Assembly: GCA_019634005.1 (NCBI GenBank)
Contig: JAHQWD010000003.1
Location: 2,525 to 66,524 of the forward strand
Reading direction: 5' to 3'
DNA: 64,000 nucleotides
Source of the DNA: Candidatus Kaiserbacteria bacterium
GTDB taxonomy: Bacteria > Patescibacteriota > Minisyncoccia > Phycocordibacterales > UBA918
Part shown: in pieces, positions 33,065 through 62,986 of the stretch
Layout of the letters: each line of letters opens with the position of its first letter
Position numbering within the stretch: the first letter of the stretch is position 1
Translations under genes and position numbers: made by a program
Notes under the pieces: model-generated
What the model saw: the letters and a program-made list of their open reading frames with translations, nothing else
Told to the model about the DNA's origin: nothing
Database searches by the model: none

Positions 33065-33094
33065 GAAAAACCCCGCATATGCGGGGTTTTTCTT
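33065..33094. terminator. bidirectional intrinsic terminator
   Basis: AAAAACCCCGCATATGCGGGGTTTTTC. Confidence 0.75.
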
Positions 33095-35010
33095 TAAATA
33101 CCGATCAATACGGGGATCACCATAGGTGTCTTGTTGGTCTTTTGGAGAAGGAATCCAGAGACCACATCAGTCAATTGATCTTTTACACTATCAAGATCGA
33201 TAGGATGTGTTCTTGCTGTTGCCTGTTCGACAGTTTTCTTTATGAGCACACGTGCCTCAGAAAGAAGTTGCTGGTTTTCTCGGAGATAGACAAAACCGCG
33301 GGAGATGACATCGGGGGACTTTCGTAGTTTTCCTGTCTTAGGGTTTACGGTTGCAATAATCACAAATATACCATCGGCTGCCAGTGACTGACGATCGCGG
33401 AGGACTACTTCTTGTTTTTCTCCAACAGTAAAGCCATCAACGACCATGATTTCTGATGGCACCTTCTCCTTATGAATAAAGAGATCGGTGCCGTTGGTGA
33501 TATCAATGACCATACCATTGTCGGAAATGATGACATTTTCTTTCGGAAATCCATTCTCGATATGGGCGTACGCCTGACTTCGAATCATAGAATGATACCC
33601 ATAGGCAGGCATGACAAACTTTGGCTTAATTTGCTCACGAATCCAAACCAACTCACCAGAGTTACCGTGTCCCGTCGAGTGGACGTCAGAGGTACGGTAG
33701 TGGACGAGCTTCACGCCTTTTCGGTATAGGTTATCTTTTAGTTTCTGCACAGAGAGTTCATTTCCTGGGATGACAGAAGAAGAGAGCATGATAGTGTCAC
33801 GTTCAGTGAGGGACACGAACTTGTGTCGACCAGTAGCAAAACGCATCAATGCCGCAAACTCCTCACCTTGTGCACCAGTTGAAAGAATAACAATACGGTC
33901 AGAAGGGTAGTTTTCAATCTCTTGGATAGGGATAATCGTTCCTGGGTCAACTTTCATTAATCCAGAACGTTCAGCAATCTCAAGATTTGTCTTCATACTT
34001 CGACCCTCAACCGCAACTTTTTTGCCTAAGGTCTGACATATCATGATGATTCGAATCATGCGCTCGAATTGTGAGGCAAATGTTCCGACAATGAGACGAC
34101 CTTTGACGGTGCTAATAATCTCCTCAATTGTGTCGTGCACACGTTGCTCTGGTACAGAGAAACCTGATCGTTCAGAGTTAGTCGAGTCACTGATGAAAAG
34201 GAGATTGTTGTCCTGTCCAAGCTCCCCCCAGACCTTCTTTTCTCTATCGGATGGTTCAGTACCATCATGTTCCAATTTGAGGTCACCAGAGATGACAATA
34301 TTGCCATGCTTTGTCTCAACAGAGATACCCATAGAGTCAGGAATAGAGTGGGTCACTGGGAATGGCTTGATGTAGGTATTCCCGATCTTTACTCGTTTTC
34401 CTGGTTCAATGACGTGCATATCAACAGGGTCAAGGTGTGGGAATTCTTCCTGACGCTTCAAAATCATGAGCGAGGTCAGATAACGAGTATAAATTGGTGG
34501 ATTACCAATTCGTTCAATAATGAATGGAATACCACCGATATGGTCAAGGTGTCCGTGAGTGATAATAAGCCCACGAATCTTATCCTTGTTTTCCTCCAGA
34601 TATTGAGTGCTCGGGAGAATGTAGTTAACACCAGGAGCATCACTCTCACCTGAAACAAATTGAAAACCTGCGTCGAAAATGAGGATGTCATCCTTCGTCT
34701 CGATTGCCGTCATGTTTTTACCAACCTCTTCTACTCCTCCAAGAGGGATAATGCGTACGGTATTCTCGTCAGTAATTGGTGGGATAGGAGTAGTCTTCCC
34801 GTCTGGTGTTGCCATTCGGTGCTTGAGTGCGGGGTTGGTAAAGCTTCGGGGTTTCCGAGCGATACCATTTCGACGACGACGCGCGTTCTTTCGCGCAGGA
34901 CGATGATTTCCTCCACTACGCGACGGATTCTTCCGTGATGGTGTCTTCCGCGACGGCGGTCGACGGCGTGGTCGTGCTGAATTCTGTGTTGTTGTTTTCT
35001 TTTCGTTCAT
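33094..35010 (-). CDS. rnj: ribonuclease J (beta-CASP metallo-beta-lactamase) with Arg-rich N-terminal extension
   Basis: HGHLDHIGG and beta-CASP motifs. The N-terminal ~70 aa are extremely basic (ARPRRRPPSRKTPSRKNPSRSGGNHRPARKNARRRRNG). Confidence 0.9.
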   Translation of the reverse strand: MNEKKTTTQNSARPRRRPPSRKTPSRKNPSRSGGNHRPARKNARRRRNGIARKPRSFTNPALKHRMATPDGKTTPIPPITDENTVRIIPLGGVEEVGKNMTAIETKDDILIFDAGFQFVSGESDAPGVNYILPSTQYLEENKDKIRGLIITHGHLDHIGGIPFIIERIGNPPIYTRYLTSLMILKRQEEFPHLDPVDMHVIEPGKRVKIGNTYIKPFPVTHSIPDSMGISVETKHGNIVISGDLKLEHDGTEPSDREKKVWGELGQDNNLLFISDSTNSERSGFSVPEQRVHDTIEEIISTVKGRLIVGTFASQFERMIRIIMICQTLGKKVAVEGRSMKTNLEIAERSGLMKVDPGTIIPIQEIENYPSDRIVILSTGAQGEEFAALMRFATGRHKFVSLTERDTIMLSSSVIPGNELSVQKLKDNLYRKGVKLVHYRTSDVHSTGHGNSGELVWIREQIKPKFVMPAYGYHSMIRSQAYAHIENGFPKENVIISDNGMVIDITNGTDLFIHKEKVPSEIMVVDGFTVGEKQEVVLRDRQSLAADGIFVIIATVNPKTGKLRKSPDVISRGFVYLRENQQLLSEARVLIKKTVEQATARTHPIDLDSVKDQLTDVVSGFLLQKTNKTPMVIPVLIGI

Positions 35011-37056: not shown

Positions 37057-37509
37057 TTATTTTTTCAGTTCCTCCACCTTTGCAAGTAGGTCTTCTACTT
37101 TCTGTGAGAGTTGTGCGATCGCTTCTCGATCTTTCTCTTCCTCAATGTCATCCTCCTGCATTTCTTCGTCAATCTCTTCAATATCTTCCTGGATCTCATC
37201 AATGTCTTCCTCTACCTCTCGAAGGCTAGCGGTGTTCTGGTTCACCGACATTTGAATAAAGATAGCAAGGTAGATTGCTTCAAGTGAGACGACGGTGGTC
37301 AGTACCAAAAGGATCCGATTCCAGGAAAAGATATCAAAGATACCGAAGAGGAAGGAGAAGATGAAGATAAGGGTATGAATCATCAAGGAAGATGGAGAGC
37401 CAATCCACTCGATAATGGTTTCGATTGAGGGTATAAGCCGTCTTTGTTTGCGTTTCTTCATCCTGTGGAGTATAGCATAAGAAAAGGCCAGCACCGTGGT
37501 GCTGACCAA
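37057..37509 (-). CDS. hypothetical membrane protein with acidic coiled-coil C-terminus
   Basis: Two TM helices, then DIDEIQEDIEEIDEEMQEDDIEEEKD. Confidence 0.5.
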   Translation of the reverse strand: MVSTTVLAFSYAILHRMKKRKQRRLIPSIETIIEWIGSPSSLMIHTLIFIFSFLFGIFDIFSWNRILLVLTTVVSLEAIYLAIFIQMSVNQNTASLREVEEDIDEIQEDIEEIDEEMQEDDIEEEKDREAIAQLSQKVEDLLAKVEELKK

Positions 37510-37518
37510 CTTCCTTTC

Positions 37519-38550
37519 TCATACATGGAGCATGCGACGAGATTGAAGGAGAGGTATGTCTATGGGTATGTACGGATTCATACAAGATATTGTGGTCTCC
37601 TGCAATGTAAACTCTTTTCTTCCCGACAGAGCTGCCCAGATAAGTGCGTTCTGCACCCTGGAGACATCAAAGCGTTCGACAAGCTGCTCGGGTGTTTCCA
37701 AACCCCACACAGACTTGAAGTGCACTTTTGGTAAGCAATGCACTGAGTGCGGACCAGGTATTCCAATGAGTCTCGAAAAAGCAAGAAGAAGACAGGTTTG
37801 ACGAACCACCGATGCGCCGGTAACCAGGTGTCGGATAGGTGCTTCTTCCTGATATGCTTTCCAAAGGTATGGCCACCAGAGAAAGTCATTATCAAGCCAC
37901 CAGGATCGTCCTTCTAGGCGTACAGTAACTATCCTACGTGTCTTCCGTGAGATTAAGAGTTGCACACCTTCAAGTCTATCTAATTCCGCTCTCATTTCCG
38001 AAGCTGCCCATGACGGGTGCGTTTCAGGTAATGTAAGAGAAGGTAGTGGTGCGGTAACAAGAGCCTCTTCATCTGATGATGTGACGGGAGAATTACAGCA
38101 TGCTGCAATTTCCCCTTTAAGAAGAGTCTTCCGTGTGCCACGAAGTACAACTCCAGATACATACTCAACGTTTCCGCACGCACATCGCATGATCTGGCGA
38201 CGTTCCTTTTTAATGAGACCTTGATCAAAGAGTGTTTGCACAACCTCCTGTATAACATCCTGTGTCATTACAGAGTCGAGCCACCAAAAGGTTGGAGAAA
38301 TTCCGAGAAGGCCTACTCGATTCTGTAGGACAGGCAGCATTCTTGGTTCACCAAGTTTGCCGTGCAGATTGATTCCGAATAACGTTTCTGTGGCACTTGT
38401 GCGCGCAAGTCTGTCTGCATATGCAAACAAACTATAGAAACCCAGTTTGTGTGAGTGCATCGGGCTAACCGGCAATACACCGACAAAATCTTGATTACAC
38501 ATTACAATCTCCCTATGAAAGTGATTCCACGCCAATCCTGCCACATACAT
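37519..38550 (-). CDS. class I aminoacyl-tRNA synthetase-like catalytic-core paralog (MetRS-like, degenerate motifs); function unknown
   Basis: LPVSPMHSHKLGF lies where the HIGH motif would be. A Cys knuckle RCACGN...AACCNSP is present. KVHFKSVWGLETPEQLVERFDVSRVQNALIWAAL resembles MetRS [28 protein letters not shown]. Only 343 aa, with no anticodon-binding domain. Confidence 0.45.
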   Translation of the reverse strand: MYVAGLAWNHFHREIVMCNQDFVGVLPVSPMHSHKLGFYSLFAYADRLARTSATETLFGINLHGKLGEPRMLPVLQNRVGLLGISPTFWWLDSVMTQDVIQEVVQTLFDQGLIKKERRQIMRCACGNVEYVSGVVLRGTRKTLLKGEIAACCNSPVTSSDEEALVTAPLPSLTLPETHPSWAASEMRAELDRLEGVQLLISRKTRRIVTVRLEGRSWWLDNDFLWWPYLWKAYQEEAPIRHLVTGASVVRQTCLLLAFSRLIGIPGPHSVHCLPKVHFKSVWGLETPEQLVERFDVSRVQNALIWAALSGRKEFTLQETTISCMNPYIPIDIPLLQSRRMLHV

Positions 38551-38574: not shown

Positions 38575-40062
38575 CTATGTCTCTGGATTAAGGATCGAAT
38601 AGAGTGCTGGGAATATCCTCGAGGTCTTTTTATGAAAGGAGAGATGCTCTGTGGGGAGTGGTGTTACGGATATCTGAGCCTGCCTACATATCTGTTGAAG
38701 AGTCTCTATGGGTATTTGCCGATCATTCTCCCCGGCAAGGATGTGATATTTGTCGGCACGAAAGGAAGAGTGTTGCATAACTGCTTCTAGTGAAAGTATC
38801 TCATCGTTTACGAGTCGACTCCAATCTGCATCAGTGAATCGGTACGCTACTCCAAACGAACGCTGCATAAACGATTTCAGTGTATCAATATCTGGAACCT
38901 GACTCATTGCGTATACAGGAGATAACGCAATGACACGATCAATTGCATTGTTGACACCAGCATAGAGTGCGACGAGTCCTCCAAAGCTGGCACCAAGAAC
39001 CGTGATATGTTCTGTATGAACAGTCTGCCCGTCTACGTTGATACCTCCTTGTATAAGCTCTGCAAGTTCCTGAATATCTTCAGCGGGATTGTGGTCAAGA
39101 AATACTCCTTCTGATTCCCAGGTCCCTTTTAGTCGAGGGAAGAATACAGCGTACCCCCAAGAGGCAAGGAGGTTGAGAAAGGTGTCGAGTACCGGCGTTC
39201 GAGGAAGGCCGTCTATGACAATGATGGCTTTTGAAAATTTCTCTGGAAGTATGTATTCGGTGATCATACCTCCTATAAAAGTGCGTGCGGGACGTTGTAT
39301 TGTACGAGGCGTGAGCATGTATGAAGTCTTGAGTGCAAGTTGGTAGAGAGTCTCATAGAAGTCAATATAGGTCTCAGCAGAGTCTACTGCGTCTTCTTTT
39401 TCAAGCCACGTCCATTGTGTGTCAGAAAATACGTGAGGAAATCGTACGCGGAATTTCTCTTCAGCCTCTTGTGTGTTGCTACATGGACCGAAGAATAGCA
39501 TTAAATCCATTAAGACACGGCGGACATGTTTCTGATGATACTGGGGATTTTTATCTCGCACATGTCGACCAATCCCCATAGCTTCGCGTCTATACTGAAA
39601 AATATAACGCTGAATTCTATTAAGTAAGCTAGTAGTTACCAACTGCTCTGAAGGACGGAACTCGGTGAAGGGATTTTCTCCATGGAGCGTTATCGCGTCT
39701 GCAAGCACATATGAGAAAAATGCACCGTGTGCGTCAAGCGAGAAGAGATCAGCTGAACCAATTTCATCACTGTAGAACAGTTGGAGGTCAAGTTCATGTT
39801 CAGAAAATATCTCTACAACCTCTCTCAATAGCCTAAGGTCTTCTGCTACATTTTGCTTCTCCTTCTTTATTACCAGTATGTCAAGATCCCAAAAGGAGTC
39901 ACTATTTAAAGAACTTCCATATAGAAGGATAGATAGATGTTCTTTCCGAAACATACGTACAATCTCCCCGGCAATGGTCTTTGCAATCATTGGTGTTGTC
40001 GCAACTGTATTCATGAGTCTCAGTATAACAAATAGTAACTTTCTTAGGGTTAAGTGTAGCAC
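38575..40062 (-). CDS. fusion protein: N-terminal minimal nucleotidyltransferase (pol-beta-like NTase) domain plus C-terminal alpha/beta hydrolase
   Basis: NTase motif LLYGSSLNSDSFWDLDILVI (GS...DxD). C-terminal nucleophile elbow GASFGG followed by a catalytic-His region. The start could be 40014. Confidence 0.6.
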   Translation of the reverse strand: MLHLTLRKLLFVILRLMNTVATTPMIAKTIAGEIVRMFRKEHLSILLYGSSLNSDSFWDLDILVIKKEKQNVAEDLRLLREVVEIFSEHELDLQLFYSDEIGSADLFSLDAHGAFFSYVLADAITLHGENPFTEFRPSEQLVTTSLLNRIQRYIFQYRREAMGIGRHVRDKNPQYHQKHVRRVLMDLMLFFGPCSNTQEAEEKFRVRFPHVFSDTQWTWLEKEDAVDSAETYIDFYETLYQLALKTSYMLTPRTIQRPARTFIGGMITEYILPEKFSKAIIVIDGLPRTPVLDTFLNLLASWGYAVFFPRLKGTWESEGVFLDHNPAEDIQELAELIQGGINVDGQTVHTEHITVLGASFGGLVALYAGVNNAIDRVIALSPVYAMSQVPDIDTLKSFMQRSFGVAYRFTDADWSRLVNDEILSLEAVMQHSSFRADKYHILAGENDRQIPIETLQQICRQAQISVTPLPTEHLSFHKKTSRIFPALYSILNPET

Positions 40063-60790: not shown

Positions 60791-62986
60791 TTAACCTGGC
60801 CACTTCGCAACCATAAGCATCTCACTGTCTTTCTCTGGAAGATGCTGCCAAATGGTCTCGGTCACAAATGGCATAAAGGGATGAAGTATCTTCAGTGACG
60901 TCGTAAGACACTCATATAGCACGTACTGTCGTGCATTCTTTGCGTCAGTATCTTCTCCATTGAGAATAGGTTTAGACTCCTCGAGAATCTTGTCTGCAAG
61001 TTCATGCCATACATAGTGGTAGGCCTTCTCCGCGGCGAGGTAGAGTTGGAACTTGTCTATATCACCAGATACCTCCCGAACCATCGTCTGTAGATTATCG
61101 AGGATCTCCTGGTCTTCTGCTCCAAGTGTATCTGGTTTTTGAGGCACTTCCTCGATGTTGGTCAGAATAAATCTCGTGATATTCCACAGTTTGTTTGCAA
61201 AGTGTTTATATCCCTTTACCTTACTCTCGTCAAAACGAAGATCATTTCCGATAGCAGTTCCCACAAGGAGTCCCATACGGAGTGCATCTGCACCGTATTT
61301 CTCAATCATCTCAATAGGATCAATACCATTGTTGAGGGATTTACTAAACTTTCTACCAGACTTGTCTCGCACCAGTCCATGGATCATAACTGTCTTAAAC
61401 GGTACCTGTCCGAGGTGAAATGCACTCATGAGAATCATGCGAGACACCCAGAGCGGAAGAATCTCGTACGCAGGGGACATGAAGGCTGTCGGATGAAATG
61501 TCTTGAGGTCTGCAGTTTCTTCTGGCCATCCAAGTGTAGAGAATGTCCAAAGAGCGGAAGAGAACCATGTATCGAGCACATCCTCTTCTTGTGTCCATCC
61601 TTCTCCTTCAGGTGTGGTGACACCACAGTGTATCTCGTCACCCTTATACCACACAGGGATACGGTGTCCGAACCAGATCTGTCGAGAAATACACCAGTCT
61701 CGGAGATTATCAATCCAATGGAAGTATGTTTTACGGAAACGTTCTTGTGGCATTGAGACCGACTCGCTCTCAACACTTGCACGCATGACTTCTACAAGAG
61801 TCGCCTCAGAACCAGATGCGATACCAGGGATCTCAGAGTGCTCTATGGTAAACGGTTTATTGACCGCAACCCACCACTGTAATTTTGGAAGTGGTTCAAT
61901 TACAGCACCAGTACGCTCTGATGTAGAGATATTCTGATCCACCTCCTCCTCTTTCTCAAGAAGATTCTCTTCCTTGAGCCACGTAACGACCGCCTCACGT
62001 GCAGCGTCCACTTTAAGATTCTCAAGACGGCCAGAGACCATCATTTTGGCATACTCATTGATAACCTGTGGGCGGGGGAGATCATTTTTCTCTGCAATTT
62101 CCCAATCTATGTGGCTGTGTGCAGGCGTAACACCAAGCGCTCCAGTTCCAAACTCCATATCAACACCATCATCGGCAACAACGGTAATGTGGAGGGGTAC
62201 ATCACAGAAGGTAAGATCGTATTCTTTTCCGATGAATTCTTGGTATCGTGTGTCGTCAGGATGGACGGCAACAGCAACATCACCCACTTTCGTCTCAGGA
62301 CGAGTGGTGGAGATGGCGATGGGGAAGTCTGAAGAATATTTAAATGTGTAGAGTACTCCTTTACGCTCTTCGTGCACAACCTCGTCATCAGAGATGGTCG
62401 TCTGCCCTTTTGGATCCCAGTTTACAATGCGATTGCCTCGATAGATAAGTCCTGCATCATACATTCTCTTAAACGCAGTACTTACCGCCAAGGTTCGTTT
62501 CTCATCAAGGGTGTACGCGTAGCGGCTCCAATCCAATGATGCTCCAACGCGTCTCACTTGGCTCAGGATAGTATCCTCACTATTCTTCGCAAACTCTGAT
62601 ACACGGCGTACTAACTCCTCTCGTCCGAGATCATGTCGTGTTTTATTCTCTTCTTTACGAATGTTTTTCTCTACTCGTGCCTGGGTTGCGATAGCGGCAG
62701 AGTCTGTCCCAGGTACCCAGAGGGTCTTTTTGCCATTCATGCGGTGGTAACGAACAAATGCATCTTGGAGAGAATCCTCGTAGGCGTGTCCAATGTGGAG
62801 TACCCCTGTTACGTTTGGGGGTGGTAATACGACAGAAAATGTCTCCGCATCAGCATCAGTAACACCTTTTTCTACACAGGTATCTGGATTAAAATAGCCG
62901 CTCTTTTCCCAAAGGGCGTATACGTCTTTCTCGTTTGCTTCGGAATCGTATGGTGAAAGGAATATGTCAGGAATCTGGTCACTCAT
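60791..62986 (-). CDS. valS: valyl-tRNA synthetase (short form, 731 aa)
   Basis: PPPNVTGVLHIGHA (HIGH motif), WVPGTDSAAIATQ and KFSKS (KMSKS motif). Lacks the long C-terminal coiled coil of canonical ValRS. Confidence 0.85.
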   Translation of the reverse strand: MSDQIPDIFLSPYDSEANEKDVYALWEKSGYFNPDTCVEKGVTDADAETFSVVLPPPNVTGVLHIGHAYEDSLQDAFVRYHRMNGKKTLWVPGTDSAAIATQARVEKNIRKEENKTRHDLGREELVRRVSEFAKNSEDTILSQVRRVGASLDWSRYAYTLDEKRTLAVSTAFKRMYDAGLIYRGNRIVNWDPKGQTTISDDEVVHEERKGVLYTFKYSSDFPIAISTTRPETKVGDVAVAVHPDDTRYQEFIGKEYDLTFCDVPLHITVVADDGVDMEFGTGALGVTPAHSHIDWEIAEKNDLPRPQVINEYAKMMVSGRLENLKVDAAREAVVTWLKEENLLEKEEEVDQNISTSERTGAVIEPLPKLQWWVAVNKPFTIEHSEIPGIASGSEATLVEVMRASVESESVSMPQERFRKTYFHWIDNLRDWCISRQIWFGHRIPVWYKGDEIHCGVTTPEGEGWTQEEDVLDTWFSSALWTFSTLGWPEETADLKTFHPTAFMSPAYEILPLWVSRMILMSAFHLGQVPFKTVMIHGLVRDKSGRKFSKSLNNGIDPIEMIEKYGADALRMGLLVGTAIGNDLRFDESKVKGYKHFANKLWNITRFILTNIEEVPQKPDTLGAEDQEILDNLQTMVREVSGDIDKFQLYLAAEKAYHYVWHELADKILEESKPILNGEDTDAKNARQYVLYECLTTSLKILHPFMPFVTETIWQHLPEKDSEMLMVAKWPG

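What the first reader, a model, noticed from the sequence alone, without database searches (positions are those of the whole stretch)
37519..38550. Truncated class I aaRS-like (MetRS-like) paralog with degenerate HIGH and KMSKS motifs
The 343-aa product has the layout of a class I synthetase catalytic core. It has PVSPMHSHKLGF where P-x-x-S-x-x-HIGH would sit. It has a Cys-rich knuckle, RCACGN...AACCNSP, like the MetRS CP zinc module. Its C-terminal segment KVHFKSVWGLETPEQLVERFDVSRVQNALIWAAL matches MetRS [28 protein letters not shown] position by position. Both catalytic signatures are altered, however. It also lacks any anticodon-binding domain. It is slightly more GC-rich than its neighbours. 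The aaRS paralogs described so far derive from Glu, Cys, Trp/Tyr and Asn synthetases: YadB, MshC, cyclodipeptide synthases and AsnA. A MetRS-derived one would be new.
Basis: inference. Interest (0 to 1): 0.7.

Follow-up and report, generated by a model that had tools for sequence, protein, structure and literature searches.

The report
MetRS-like protein paired with nucleotidyltransferase
A small protein in a Candidatus Kaiserbacteria genome has the fold of the catalytic core of methionyl-tRNA synthetase but has lost every ATP-binding signature, and it always sits next to a nucleotidyltransferase(-esterase) gene, so it looks like an undescribed two-protein system rather than a decayed synthetase.

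Summary

HIGH (here K-L-G-F) and KMSKS are lost across the whole family, and there is no anticodon-binding domain. The Cys knuckle, the (D)ISR arginine and an invariant D-x-D…W block at the active-site crevice are conserved.

In about 13 independent loci the gene is always adjacent to a Polβ-type, kanamycin-NTase-like nucleotidyltransferase. That partner is usually fused to a Ser-Asp-His esterase, in either domain order or without it.

This ATP-motif-less, NTase-coupled family nevertheless appears undescribed. Its function is inferred, not shown.

The parts
37519..38502 (-). CDS of the MetRS-like catalytic-core protein (327 aa plus stop).
   Evidence: ORF. Homolog starts. SD. Fold. Profile homology to MetRS.
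38509..38513 (-). Shine-Dalgarno GGGAG, 6 nt upstream of the ATG at 38502.
   Evidence: Read directly from the sequence.
38437..38472 (-). P11-x-x-P14...K19-L-G21-F22, the loop and helix start that replace P-x-x-x-G-x-x-H-I-G-H. Only the two Pro and the Gly are conserved family-wide, and no His is conserved.
   Evidence: Column counts. hhalign pairs KLGF with H[LV]GH.
38359..38370 (-). N45-x-x-G48 at the C-terminal end of strand beta2 (58/65 N, 54/65 G). It is the likely positional equivalent of MetRS D52-x-H-G55, where the Asp binds the amino acid's amino group.
   Evidence: Conservation. Strand position. The equivalence to D52 is inferred from topology, because hhalign places the gap differently here.
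38095..38184 (-). Four-Cys knuckle (C107-x-C109-G ... C135-C136) inside the CP insertion between the two Rossmann halves. It is a putative zinc site.
   Evidence: 59-60 of 65 family members keep each Cys. It lies in the beta-rich insertion 97-203 of the model. Metal binding was not tested.
37945..37950 (-). S185-R186 of L-I-S-R, aligned to the class Ia/MetRS (D)-I-S-R block. R186 corresponds to R234 in the gene-numbered E. coli sequence used here.
   Evidence: 61/65 S and 61/65 R. Alignment.
37876..37893 (-). D204-N-D206-x-x-W209. D204 is invariant, D206 is 64/65 and W209 is 53/65. It aligns to the MetRS methionine-pocket block V-W-L-D-A-P-I-G-Y.
   Evidence: It sits directly after strand 199-203.
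37798..37818 (-). G229-A-S-V-V-R-Q235, aligned to MetRS G-K-D-I-V-Y-F-H. The ribose-binding Asp of G-x-D is replaced (S/K here).
   Evidence: The function of that Asp is from my own knowledge of class I aaRS.
37693..37731 (-). P258 (invariant)-K-V-H-F-K-S-V-W-G-L-E-T270, the strand plus a shortened loop at the KMSKS position. No conserved Lys or Ser pattern exists in the family.
   Evidence: Column counts. hhalign alignment.
37486..37507 (-). Terminator-like hairpin (9-bp stem, T-run) 12 nt after the stop codon. It marks the end of the two-gene operon.
38575..40014 (-). Partner CDS (479 aa plus stop) with three domains: Polbeta-type nucleotidyltransferase (aa 1-120), helical domain (121-236), alpha/beta-hydrolase (240-479). 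The longer GTG ORF to 40062 is probably not used.
39787..39918 (-). NTase catalytic signature Y-G33-S34-x8-D43-L-D45 plus the third carboxylate D76 (L-D-L-Q).
   Evidence: Invariant in 29 partner sequences. Sequence shown.
38644..38988 (-). Esterase catalytic triad: S343 (G-x-S-F-G-G; near-invariant, >=90 %), D431 and H457 (both invariant), numbered on the 479-aa protein.
   Evidence: Invariant and near-invariant columns. Sequence. Fold.

Best explanation
SHOWN
- The gene encodes a 327-aa standalone homolog of the class Ia (MetRS-type) aminoacyl-tRNA synthetase catalytic core. It has a split Rossmann fold and a Cys-knuckle CP insertion, and it ends shortly after the KMSKS-equivalent strand, so it has no anticodon-binding domain.
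- In the whole family, HIGH, KMSKS and the G-x-D aspartate are gone. All three are ATP contacts in canonical class I enzymes (that role is textbook knowledge).
- The residues that remain almost invariant all sit at the C-terminal ends of the Rossmann strands, which form the old active-site crevice: P11/P14/G21, N45/G48, D76, S185-R186, D204-x-D206-x-x-W209, G229, P258.
- The gene forms a two-gene operon with a Polbeta-type, kanamycin-NTase-like nucleotidyltransferase. Both partners carry intact catalytic residues.
- The pairing is kept in every locus examined. The flanking genes differ, and the partner's esterase domain is C-terminal, N-terminal or absent.

INFERRED (the mechanism I commit to)
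- The MetRS-like protein no longer activates an amino acid with ATP. It serves as the substrate-recognition subunit of a two-protein enzyme.
- Its remodelled methionine / A76 pocket holds an aminoacyl-ester-type substrate, most likely the 3' end of a tRNA or aminoacyl-tRNA, possibly a tRNA with a CAU anticodon.
- The partner NTase supplies the nucleotidyl-transfer chemistry on that substrate.
- The fused serine esterase, where present, removes or handles the aminoacyl ester.
- In short, the nucleotide chemistry of a synthetase has been handed over to a separate NTase.
For: Fold:
- AF2 model pLDDT 79.8, pTM 0.83.
- Foldseek top 46 hits all MetRS, best E 3.7e-15, TM 0.68.

Sequence homology:
- hhalign of the family against a 5-sequence MetRS alignment gives 92.7 %, P 4.4e-7, 292 columns.
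- Controls: reversed alignment 19.2; 30 block shuffles at most 29.6, against 56.9 real.
- LeuRS aligns over only 45 columns.

Motif loss and retained crevice residues: with strand positions.

Operon: SD and 72-nt spacer, terminator.

Partner:
- GS...DxD...D signature and Ser-Asp-His triad invariant or near-invariant in 29 sequences.
- NTP_transf_2 passes Pfam's threshold in three divergent partners.
- PDB profile hits to MNT and kanamycin/aminoglycoside NTases and to carboxylesterases.

Pairing:
- HMM scan of all fetched loci finds both genes adjacent in the window, L001, L002, L003, L007, L009, L018/19, L020, L021, L022, L023, L024 and L011/12/14/15 (contexts).
- Start/stop overlaps of 4 nt (L022) and 11 nt (L011/12/14/15) in some distant members.
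- Domain order is permuted in L018/19, and the partner is NTase-only in L003 and L011-15.

Hints towards tRNA:
- The family is basic (median pI 8.7, 80 % above 8) against 6.4 for true MetRS. The basic charge lies in the CP insertion and the C-terminal half.
- In one clade the pair lies between a tRNA(CAU) gene and the genuine MetRS gene.
- tmRNA and SmpB lie next to it in L023.
Against: - Nothing here shows binding of tRNA, an amino acid or a nucleotide, or a physical complex between the two proteins.
- The tRNA(CAU)/MetRS neighbourhood comes from four closely related contigs (NTases 72-76 % identical), so it counts as one observation. Translation genes are abundant in these small genomes anyway.
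- A basic pI is weak evidence and is partly a composition effect in AT-rich genomes.
- The NTase's closest sequence relatives in the PDB are small-molecule (aminoglycoside) adenylyltransferases and MNT antitoxins, not tRNA nucleotidyltransferases.
- The two invariant Asp residues in the pocket would fit a cationic or polyhydroxylated small molecule, or a metal, at least as well as RNA.
- The two partner families could not be shown to be homologous beyond the NTase motif.
- The MetRS-like model rests on a 4-sequence alignment, and the other four AF2 models were poorer (55-67 pLDDT).
Confidence: 0.4

Rival explanations
1. Small-molecule modification or resistance module. The ANT-like nucleotidyltransferase and the esterase inactivate or tailor an amino-acid-like or aminoacyl-nucleoside compound, for example an aaRS-targeting antibiotic from a host or neighbour. 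The MetRS-like core acts as the ligand-binding specificity subunit or as a target-mimicking decoy.
For: - The partner's N-terminal half matches kanamycin NTase, ANT(3'')(9)/AadA-type enzymes and MNTs by profile and has the same NTase-plus-helical-domain layout.
- The esterase resembles small carboxylesterases and thioesterases.
- The cassette is rare and patchy with unrelated flanks, as accessory resistance genes are.
- The invariant D204/D206/N45 in the old amino-acid pocket suit a cationic or polyhydroxylated ligand.
Against: - To my knowledge, known ANT enzymes need no partner protein.
- A decoy for adenylate-mimicking inhibitors would be expected to keep the adenylate-binding HIGH and KMSKS elements, which are lost.
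- No match in plasmids or phage families, and none in a viral contig scan with the ~380-aa subgroup alignment.
- The family is basic overall.
Confidence: 0.2
2. Toxin-antitoxin or defence-like pair. Either the NTase is a MenT/AbiEii-like toxin that blocks tRNA acceptor ends and the MetRS-like protein neutralises or targets it, or the NTase nucleotidylates the MetRS-like protein as MntA does to HepT, switching a tRNA- or methionine-sequestering protein on and off.
For: - Two-gene cassette with overlapping or closely spaced genes and variable genomic context.
- Minimal-NTase (MNT)-type signature.
- The L024 copy lies near a Y1 transposase and a MazE gene and is itself truncated.
- A near-invariant Ser/Thr (S185) next to R186 in the crevice could be a modification site.
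Against: - No significant PADLOC hit: none for the MetRS-like proteins, and only a weak one (PDC-S09, E 0.0024) for the window partner.
- No HEPN Rx4-6H motif is visible in the helical domain (read from the consensus).
- The proteins are much larger than typical TA components.
- The window copy sits among housekeeping genes (groES/EL, secG, RNase J) with no mobile-element signs.
- The fused esterase has no precedent in such systems that I know of.
Confidence: 0.15
3. Still a ligase or transferase in its own right. The MetRS-like core has evolved a new nucleotide/metal site (invariant D-x-D, R186, K296, R322). It makes an aminoacyl or related ester or amide without HIGH/KMSKS, or, like cyclodipeptide synthases, takes the activated aminoacyl group from aminoacyl-tRNA. 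The NTase and esterase act up- or downstream in the same pathway.
For: - Strong conservation exactly at the catalytic crevice.
- Fusion of one family member to an OPRT-like phosphoribosyltransferase suggests nucleotide-linked chemistry.
Against: - HIGH, KMSKS and the G-x-D Asp are all lost family-wide.
- There is no biosynthetic gene cluster context such as a cupin, N-hydroxylase, NRPS or oxidase.
- CPR genomes have little secondary metabolism (my own knowledge).
Confidence: 0.12
4. Inert relic or purely structural pseudoenzyme whose adjacency to the NTase gene has no functional meaning.
For: - All catalytic signatures of the parent enzyme are lost.
- Some copies look damaged: an in-frame TGA in L020 and a truncated C-terminus in L024.
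Against: - 231 diverged representatives keep length and a precise set of crevice residues down to about 20 % identity.
- Adjacency survives domain shuffling of the partner and complete turnover of the flanking genes.
Confidence: 0.05

Closest known systems
Methionyl-tRNA synthetase catalytic domain (class Ia aaRS; Pfam PF09334 tRNA-synt_1g)
   Same: - Collinear profile alignment over 292 columns.
- Shared features: split Rossmann fold, compact Cys-knuckle CP insertion without an editing domain, the GLI...C-x-C...E class Ia block, the (D)ISR arginine, the W-L-D-x-x-x-x-[YW] pocket block, and the helix after KMSKS.
   Different: - HIGH, KMSKS and the G-x-D Asp are lost.
- D52-equivalent is Asn (inferred from topology).
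- No anticodon-binding domain.
- About 20 % shorter core.
- Basic rather than acidic.
- Not recognised by any curated HMM.
- Obligatory NTase neighbour.
MetRS-like domains or proteins of hydrazine synthetases (PyrN, Spb40, Tri28; PDB 9l8v)
   Same: - MetRS-derived paralogs that work outside translation; some are standalone (PMC8664883).
   Different: - They are ATP-dependent and form an aminoacyl-adenylate; a K458A variant is inactive (PMC8664883).
- They are recognisably MetRS by sequence: 9l8v matches a true MetRS at 7e-25.
- They are about 530-560 aa and partner with a cupin and an N-hydroxylase. None of this holds here.
Cyclodipeptide synthases (class I aaRS-like, tRNA-dependent)
   Same: A class I synthetase-like Rossmann core that has lost the ATP signatures and works on a pre-activated substrate, aminoacyl-tRNA (PMC3105412). 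This is the best functional analogy for an ATP-motif-less aaRS core.
   Different: - CDPS have no CP zinc knuckle and no NTase partner (my own knowledge).
- No CDPS Pfam hit.
Other truncated class I paralogs: YadB/Glu-Q-RS, MshC, BshC
   Same: - Class I cores outside translation; YadB also lacks the anticodon-binding domain (PMC9437257 cites Salazar et al. 2004).
   Different: - YadB and MshC keep functional ATP motifs and adenylate their substrate (my own knowledge).
- They derive from GluRS or CysRS, not MetRS.
- They have no NTase partner.
Kanamycin/aminoglycoside nucleotidyltransferases (ANT(4'), AadA) and minimal NTases (MNT; MntA, AF0614)
   Same: - The partner's N-terminal 236 aa has the GS...DxD...D Polbeta signature followed by a helical domain.
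- Profile hits to these proteins (Pfam PF18765 and PF01909).
   Different: - Fused to, or permuted with, a Ser-Asp-His esterase.
- Strictly coupled to a MetRS-like gene.
- Similarity is confined to the NTase motif region (residues 3-65 of the profile).
- No HEPN partner or motif.

Membership tests
Class I aaRS / MetRS | Rossmann-fold catalytic core split by a CP insertion | tested here: met
   [not shown]
Class I aaRS / MetRS | HIGH signature (H-x-G-H) at the start of the first helix | tested here: not met
   The aligned position reads K-L-G-F. Family-wide only the Gly is conserved (54/65); the first position is K 23/65 and the last is F/Y 47/65.
Class I aaRS / MetRS | KMSKS loop after the fifth strand | tested here: not met
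   The aligned segment is S-V-W-G-L-E-T, which is shortened. The columns are variable in the family; only P258 just before it is invariant.
Class I aaRS / MetRS | C-terminal helical anticodon-binding domain | tested here: not met
   The protein ends 57 aa after the KMSKS-equivalent. 283-305 of 327 residues already align to catalytic cores. hhalign covers MetRS positions 20-377 only.
Class I aaRS / MetRS | Recognition by curated family HMMs (PF09334 / PF00133 / NCBIfam metG) | tested here: not met
   No hit for this protein or for 10 diverse relatives. The same libraries detect the genuine LeuRS of the window.
Class I aaRS / MetRS | ATP-dependent amino-acid activation and tRNA charging | not testable with these tools
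   Needs biochemistry. The motif losses argue against it.
Hydrazine-synthetase MetRS-like proteins | Cupin domain or gene and lysine/ornithine N-hydroxylase in the neighbourhood | tested here: not met
   No cupin or N-hydroxylase appears in any of the loci examined. Definition from PMC8664883.
Hydrazine-synthetase MetRS-like proteins | Retained ATP-binding motifs and plain sequence similarity to MetRS | tested here: not met
   Motifs lost. No phmmer or hmmsearch hit to any PDB MetRS or to 9l8v, whereas 9l8v hits a true MetRS at 7e-25.
Cyclodipeptide synthases | Class Ic (TyrRS/TrpRS)-like core | tested here: not met
   [not shown]
Cyclodipeptide synthases | Use of aminoacyl-tRNA as the activated substrate | not testable with these tools
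   Only an analogy. Both families lack HIGH and KMSKS.
Polbeta-superfamily nucleotidyltransferase (partner gene) | hG[GS]-x9-13-Dh[DE]h plus a third carboxylate on the next strand | tested here: met
   Y-G33-S34...D43-L-D45 and D76 are invariant in 29 sequences. PF01909 scores 28 bits against a cut-off of 21 in L011, L015 and L019 partners. The window copy is weak on its own (PF18765, E 0.026).
ANT-type (kanamycin NTase-like) two-domain adenylyltransferase (partner gene) | NTase domain followed by a helical substrate-binding domain homologous to KNTase_C | tested here: inconclusive
   [not shown]
Alpha/beta-hydrolase serine esterase (partner gene) | Alpha/beta-hydrolase fold with a G-x-S-x-G nucleophile, Asp and His | tested here: met
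   [not shown]
MNT-HEPN / MenT-type toxin-antitoxin systems | HEPN Rx4-6H partner or DUF1814-type toxin; recognition by defence/TA models | tested here: not met
   No significant PADLOC hit for either protein; the partner gives only a weak PDC-S09 hit, E 0.0024. No Rx4-6H motif in the conserved helical-domain consensus.

The most novel reading that the evidence does not exclude
A previously unrecognised two-protein enzyme in which a MetRS-derived core has given up its own ATP chemistry and instead presents a tRNA 3' end or aminoacyl ester to a separate Polbeta nucleotidyltransferase, often with a built-in esterase. This would be a new way of modifying, tagging or repairing tRNA or aminoacyl-tRNA, and a new evolutionary fate for a synthetase core, in ultra-small CPR bacteria and relatives.
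Probability: 0.3. Interest if true: 0.85.

Novelty: new variant of a known kind. Interest (0 to 1): 0.62.

Why it matters
aaRS paralogs have repeatedly turned out to have unexpected chemistry. Examples are cyclodipeptide synthases, mycothiol ligase, Glu-Q tRNA modification and hydrazine synthetases.

This family extends the list in three ways:
- It is a MetRS-type core that has lost HIGH, KMSKS and the G-x-D Asp but is under strong selection at the old active-site crevice.
- It is invisible to Pfam, NCBIfam, PADLOC and PHROGs.
- It is genetically locked to a nucleotidyltransferase(-esterase).

If the pair acts on tRNA ends or aminoacyl esters, it would be a new translation-linked activity in organisms with minimal genomes. 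If it acts on small molecules, it would be a new resistance or tailoring logic that uses a synthetase-derived recognition subunit. Either way it gives a concrete, cloneable two-gene system for experiment. It also corrects a mis-annotated gene start in the public record.

Tried and rejected
- Single-sequence and 4-sequence profile searches of Pfam, NCBIfam and PDB sequences found nothing meaningful. The best hits were CtsR_C at E 0.036, ribosomal protein S4 at 0.09 and ClpS at about 1; all were rejected as noise.
- PADLOC and PHROGs gave nothing significant for the MetRS-like protein or its relatives. The window partner had one weak PADLOC hit (PDC-S09, E 0.0024). The plasmid tblastn found nothing.
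- A viral-contig scan with the ~380-aa subgroup alignment found nothing.
- hhalign against a single E. coli MetRS sequence was collinear but not significant (4 %, E 0.0099). It became significant only with a small MetRS alignment.
- The word-indexed homolog search with the 65-sequence profile returned only 9 proteins because of its candidate cap.
With narrower ones it returned few loci.
- The NTase-only partner profile had no PDB sequence hit. The two partner families could not be linked beyond the NTase motif.
- Rfam found no T-box, riboswitch or other leader near the operon or in 12 homologous loci.
- The cluster look-up gave no organism names for distant members, so the taxonomic range beyond four CPR lineages is unknown.
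- Literature searches for an aaRS-like plus nucleotidyltransferase system found nothing relevant.
- The idea that the higher GC marks a horizontally acquired island was rejected, because the difference is within local noise.
Full report
OBSERVATION

The translated product is probably shorter.
- Every homolog starts at the ORF's M17.
- A GGGAG Shine-Dalgarno lies 6 nt before that ATG (38502), while the upstream ATG has none.
- The resulting 72-nt spacer after the preceding gene matches the 68-79 nt spacers in orthologous loci.

I therefore take the CDS as 37519..38502, 327 aa. GenBank annotates only the last 249 aa (KTR10_01760, Candidatus Kaiserbacteria). A terminator-like hairpin follows the stop codon. 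The GC remark is not meaningful: 0.472 against 0.457-0.461 in adjacent windows.

IS IT A CLASS I SYNTHETASE CORE?

Curated libraries and direct sequence searches say nothing (Pfam, NCBIfam, PDB sequences). The same is true for ten diverse relatives. Two independent approaches nevertheless agree.

1. Structure. An AlphaFold2 model built on four sequences has pLDDT 79.8 and pTM 0.83 (the other four models were poorer). It shows beta-alpha-beta-alpha-beta, a beta-rich insertion (97-203), then beta-alpha-beta.
   - Foldseek against the PDB returns MetRS for the first 46 hits. The best has E 3.7e-15 and TM 0.68.
2. Sequence. An exhaustive HMM search found 231 cluster representatives; the close clade is 313-331 aa and most others are 360-390 aa.
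   - A 65-sequence alignment of them (A3) aligns to a five-sequence MetRS alignment with hhalign probability 92.7 %, P 4.4e-7, over 292 columns.
   - The reversed alignment scores 19.2 and thirty block-shuffled versions score at most 29.6, against 56.9 for the real one.
   - The genome's own LeuRS shares only a 45-column class Ia block.

MOTIFS

hhalign puts K19-L-G-F22 exactly on H-[LV]-G-H. Across the family only the Gly is conserved.

The KMSKS loop corresponds to a shortened, variable segment (about S264-T270). It follows an invariant Pro258. The helix after it (PEQLVERF..R..NAL) does match the MetRS y-G-x-D-x-l-R-y-y-L helix.

The Asp of G-x-D is also replaced. In canonical class I enzymes that Asp binds the ATP ribose (my own knowledge). 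The protein ends 57 aa after the KMSKS-equivalent, so there is no anticodon-binding domain.

What is conserved is telling:
- P11, P14, G21
- N45, G48
- D76
- the four Cys (59-60 of 65 members)
- S185-R186
- D204 (invariant), D206, W209
- G229, Q/H235
- P258 (invariant)
- K296, R322

Most of these sit at the C-terminal ends of the Rossmann strands in the model, which is the old active-site crevice.
- L-I-S-R aligns with the MetRS (D)-I-S-R block.
- W-L-D-N-D-x-x-W aligns with the methionine-pocket block V-W-L-D-A-P-I-G-Y.
- N45 is inferred, from its position at the end of beta2, to replace the amino-group-binding Asp52. hhalign is ambiguous there.

The picture is a remodelled, selected pocket, not a decaying one.

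THE PARTNER GENE

Immediately upstream, in the same orientation, lies 38575..40014 (479 aa). Its AlphaFold model is confident (pLDDT 90.2, pTM 0.87) and has three domains.
- A Polbeta-type NTase with invariant G33-S34...D43-x-D45...D76.
- A helical domain (121-236).
- An alpha/beta-hydrolase with S343 (near-invariant), D431 and H457 (both invariant).

Scanning every fetched locus with HMMs of both families shows the two genes adjacent in all cases: the window, L001, L002, L003, L007, L009, L020-L024, L018/19 and L011/12/14/15. This includes loci found starting from the partner. The flanking genes are unrelated from locus to locus.

The partner's architecture varies:
- NTase-helical-esterase in most loci.
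- Esterase-NTase, divergently transcribed, in L018/19.
- NTase plus helical domain only in L003.
- A different 388-aa NTase that overlaps the MetRS-like gene by 11 nt in L011/12/14/15.

The constant element is therefore an NTase. Named sources are all Patescibacteria: Kaiserbacteria, Pacebacteria, Saccharibacteria and unclassified. The affiliation of the distant clades is unknown.

FUNCTIONAL INFERENCE

Shown:
- The fold and homology.
- The loss of HIGH, KMSKS and the G-x-D Asp.
- Conservation of the crevice.
- The operon structure.
- The strict pairing with a catalytically intact NTase, with or without an esterase.

Inferred: the MetRS-like protein is a recognition subunit for a substrate resembling what MetRS binds, and the NTase provides the nucleotidyl-transfer step. 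I favour a tRNA or aminoacyl-tRNA 3' end as that substrate (confidence about 0.4), for these reasons:
- The family is basic (median pI 8.7 against 6.4 for true MetRS), with the charge in the CP insertion and C-terminal half.
- One clade places the pair between a tRNA(CAU) gene and the genuine MetRS gene.
- Another locus has tmRNA and SmpB next door.
- An esterase makes sense for an aminoacyl ester.

These hints are weak. The tRNA/MetRS context is a single evolutionary observation. The NTase's nearest relatives act on small molecules or proteins.

Rivals:
- A small-molecule modification or resistance module (0.2).
- A TA/defence-like pair (0.15).
- A re-invented ligase or an aminoacyl-tRNA-dependent transferase analogous to CDPS (0.12).
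- An inert relic (0.05).

No riboswitch or T-box was found. No defence-family, phage-family or plasmid link was found for the MetRS-like protein.

COMPARISON WITH WHAT IS KNOWN, AND NOVELTY

MetRS-like domains and standalone proteins of hydrazine synthetases are biochemically and structurally characterised (PMC8664883, PMC12376268, bioRxiv 10.1101/2025.08.22.671884). PDB 9l8v appears among my top hits.

Those enzymes differ from this family. They are ATP-dependent, recognisably MetRS by sequence, about 200 aa longer and coupled to cupins. The present family fails each of those tests.

It resembles cyclodipeptide synthases only in logic: a class I core without ATP motifs (PMC3105412). CDPS derive from a different class I branch.

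I found no description of an aaRS-like plus NTase module. I rate it a new variant of a known kind (aaRS paralogs), with moderate-to-high interest.

Noticed in passing
window 37519..38550 (-) and 38575..40062 (-): Public annotation starts differ from what the evidence supports. The MetRS-like gene is annotated as 249 aa (start at M95 of the ORF), although homologs and an SD support 327 aa. The partner's longest ORF (495 aa, GTG) is probably 479 aa, as annotated.
   Followed up: yes
window 37057..37509 (-): The downstream 150-aa ORF has a TM segment plus a very acidic coiled-coil tail, with only weak DUF1003/AI-2E-type hits. Its TTG start overlaps the operon's terminator hairpin, so the real start is probably the internal Met (MKKRKQ...).
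   Followed up: partly
window 60791..62986 (-): The genome's class Ia synthetase here (LeuRS-type hits) is only 731 aa, and the editing-domain Pfam match is a 44-aa fragment. It may be a LeuRS with a reduced CP1 editing domain.
   Followed up: no
window 33094..35010 (-): RNase J carries an N-terminal extension of about 85 aa that is extremely rich in Arg, Pro and Ser (PRRRPPSRKTPSRKNPSRS...).
   Followed up: no
L001 8410-10014; L019 7109-8645; L021 1861-3489: A HisKA_7TM-type histidine kinase lies within one or two genes of the NTase/MetRS-like pair in three otherwise unrelated loci. The window has none nearby. Unexplained.
   Followed up: partly
L011 6714-6789, L012 883-958, L014 193-268, L015 268-343: In the AT-rich clade the arrangement is tRNA(CAU) (divergent) | NTase | MetRS-like | genuine MetRS (archaeal/eukaryote-like type) | thymidylate kinase. 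The tRNA has A1:U72, an odd T-loop (TTAGAGT), no three G:C pairs in the anticodon stem, and an encoded CCA.
   Followed up: partly
L020 3928-3930: The MetRS-like gene of this metagenomic locus is interrupted by a single in-frame TGA while the reading frame continues. This is either a UGA-recoding lineage or a pseudogene. An ABC-F-type ATPase gene follows it.
   Followed up: partly
L024 6480-7325: The Candidatus Pacebacteria copy lacks the last ~60 aa, including the invariant Pro region. It sits near a Y1 transposase and a MazE-like gene, so it may be a decaying copy.
   Followed up: partly
proteins P0090 (597 aa) and P0110 (879 aa): Some family members are fused C-terminally to an orotate-PRTase-like phosphoribosyltransferase domain (P0090) or to a ~600-aa region with no recognisable domains (P0110).
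   Followed up: partly
L023 7425-7826 and 8415-8861: tmRNA and smpB lie directly downstream of the pair in this locus.
   Followed up: no
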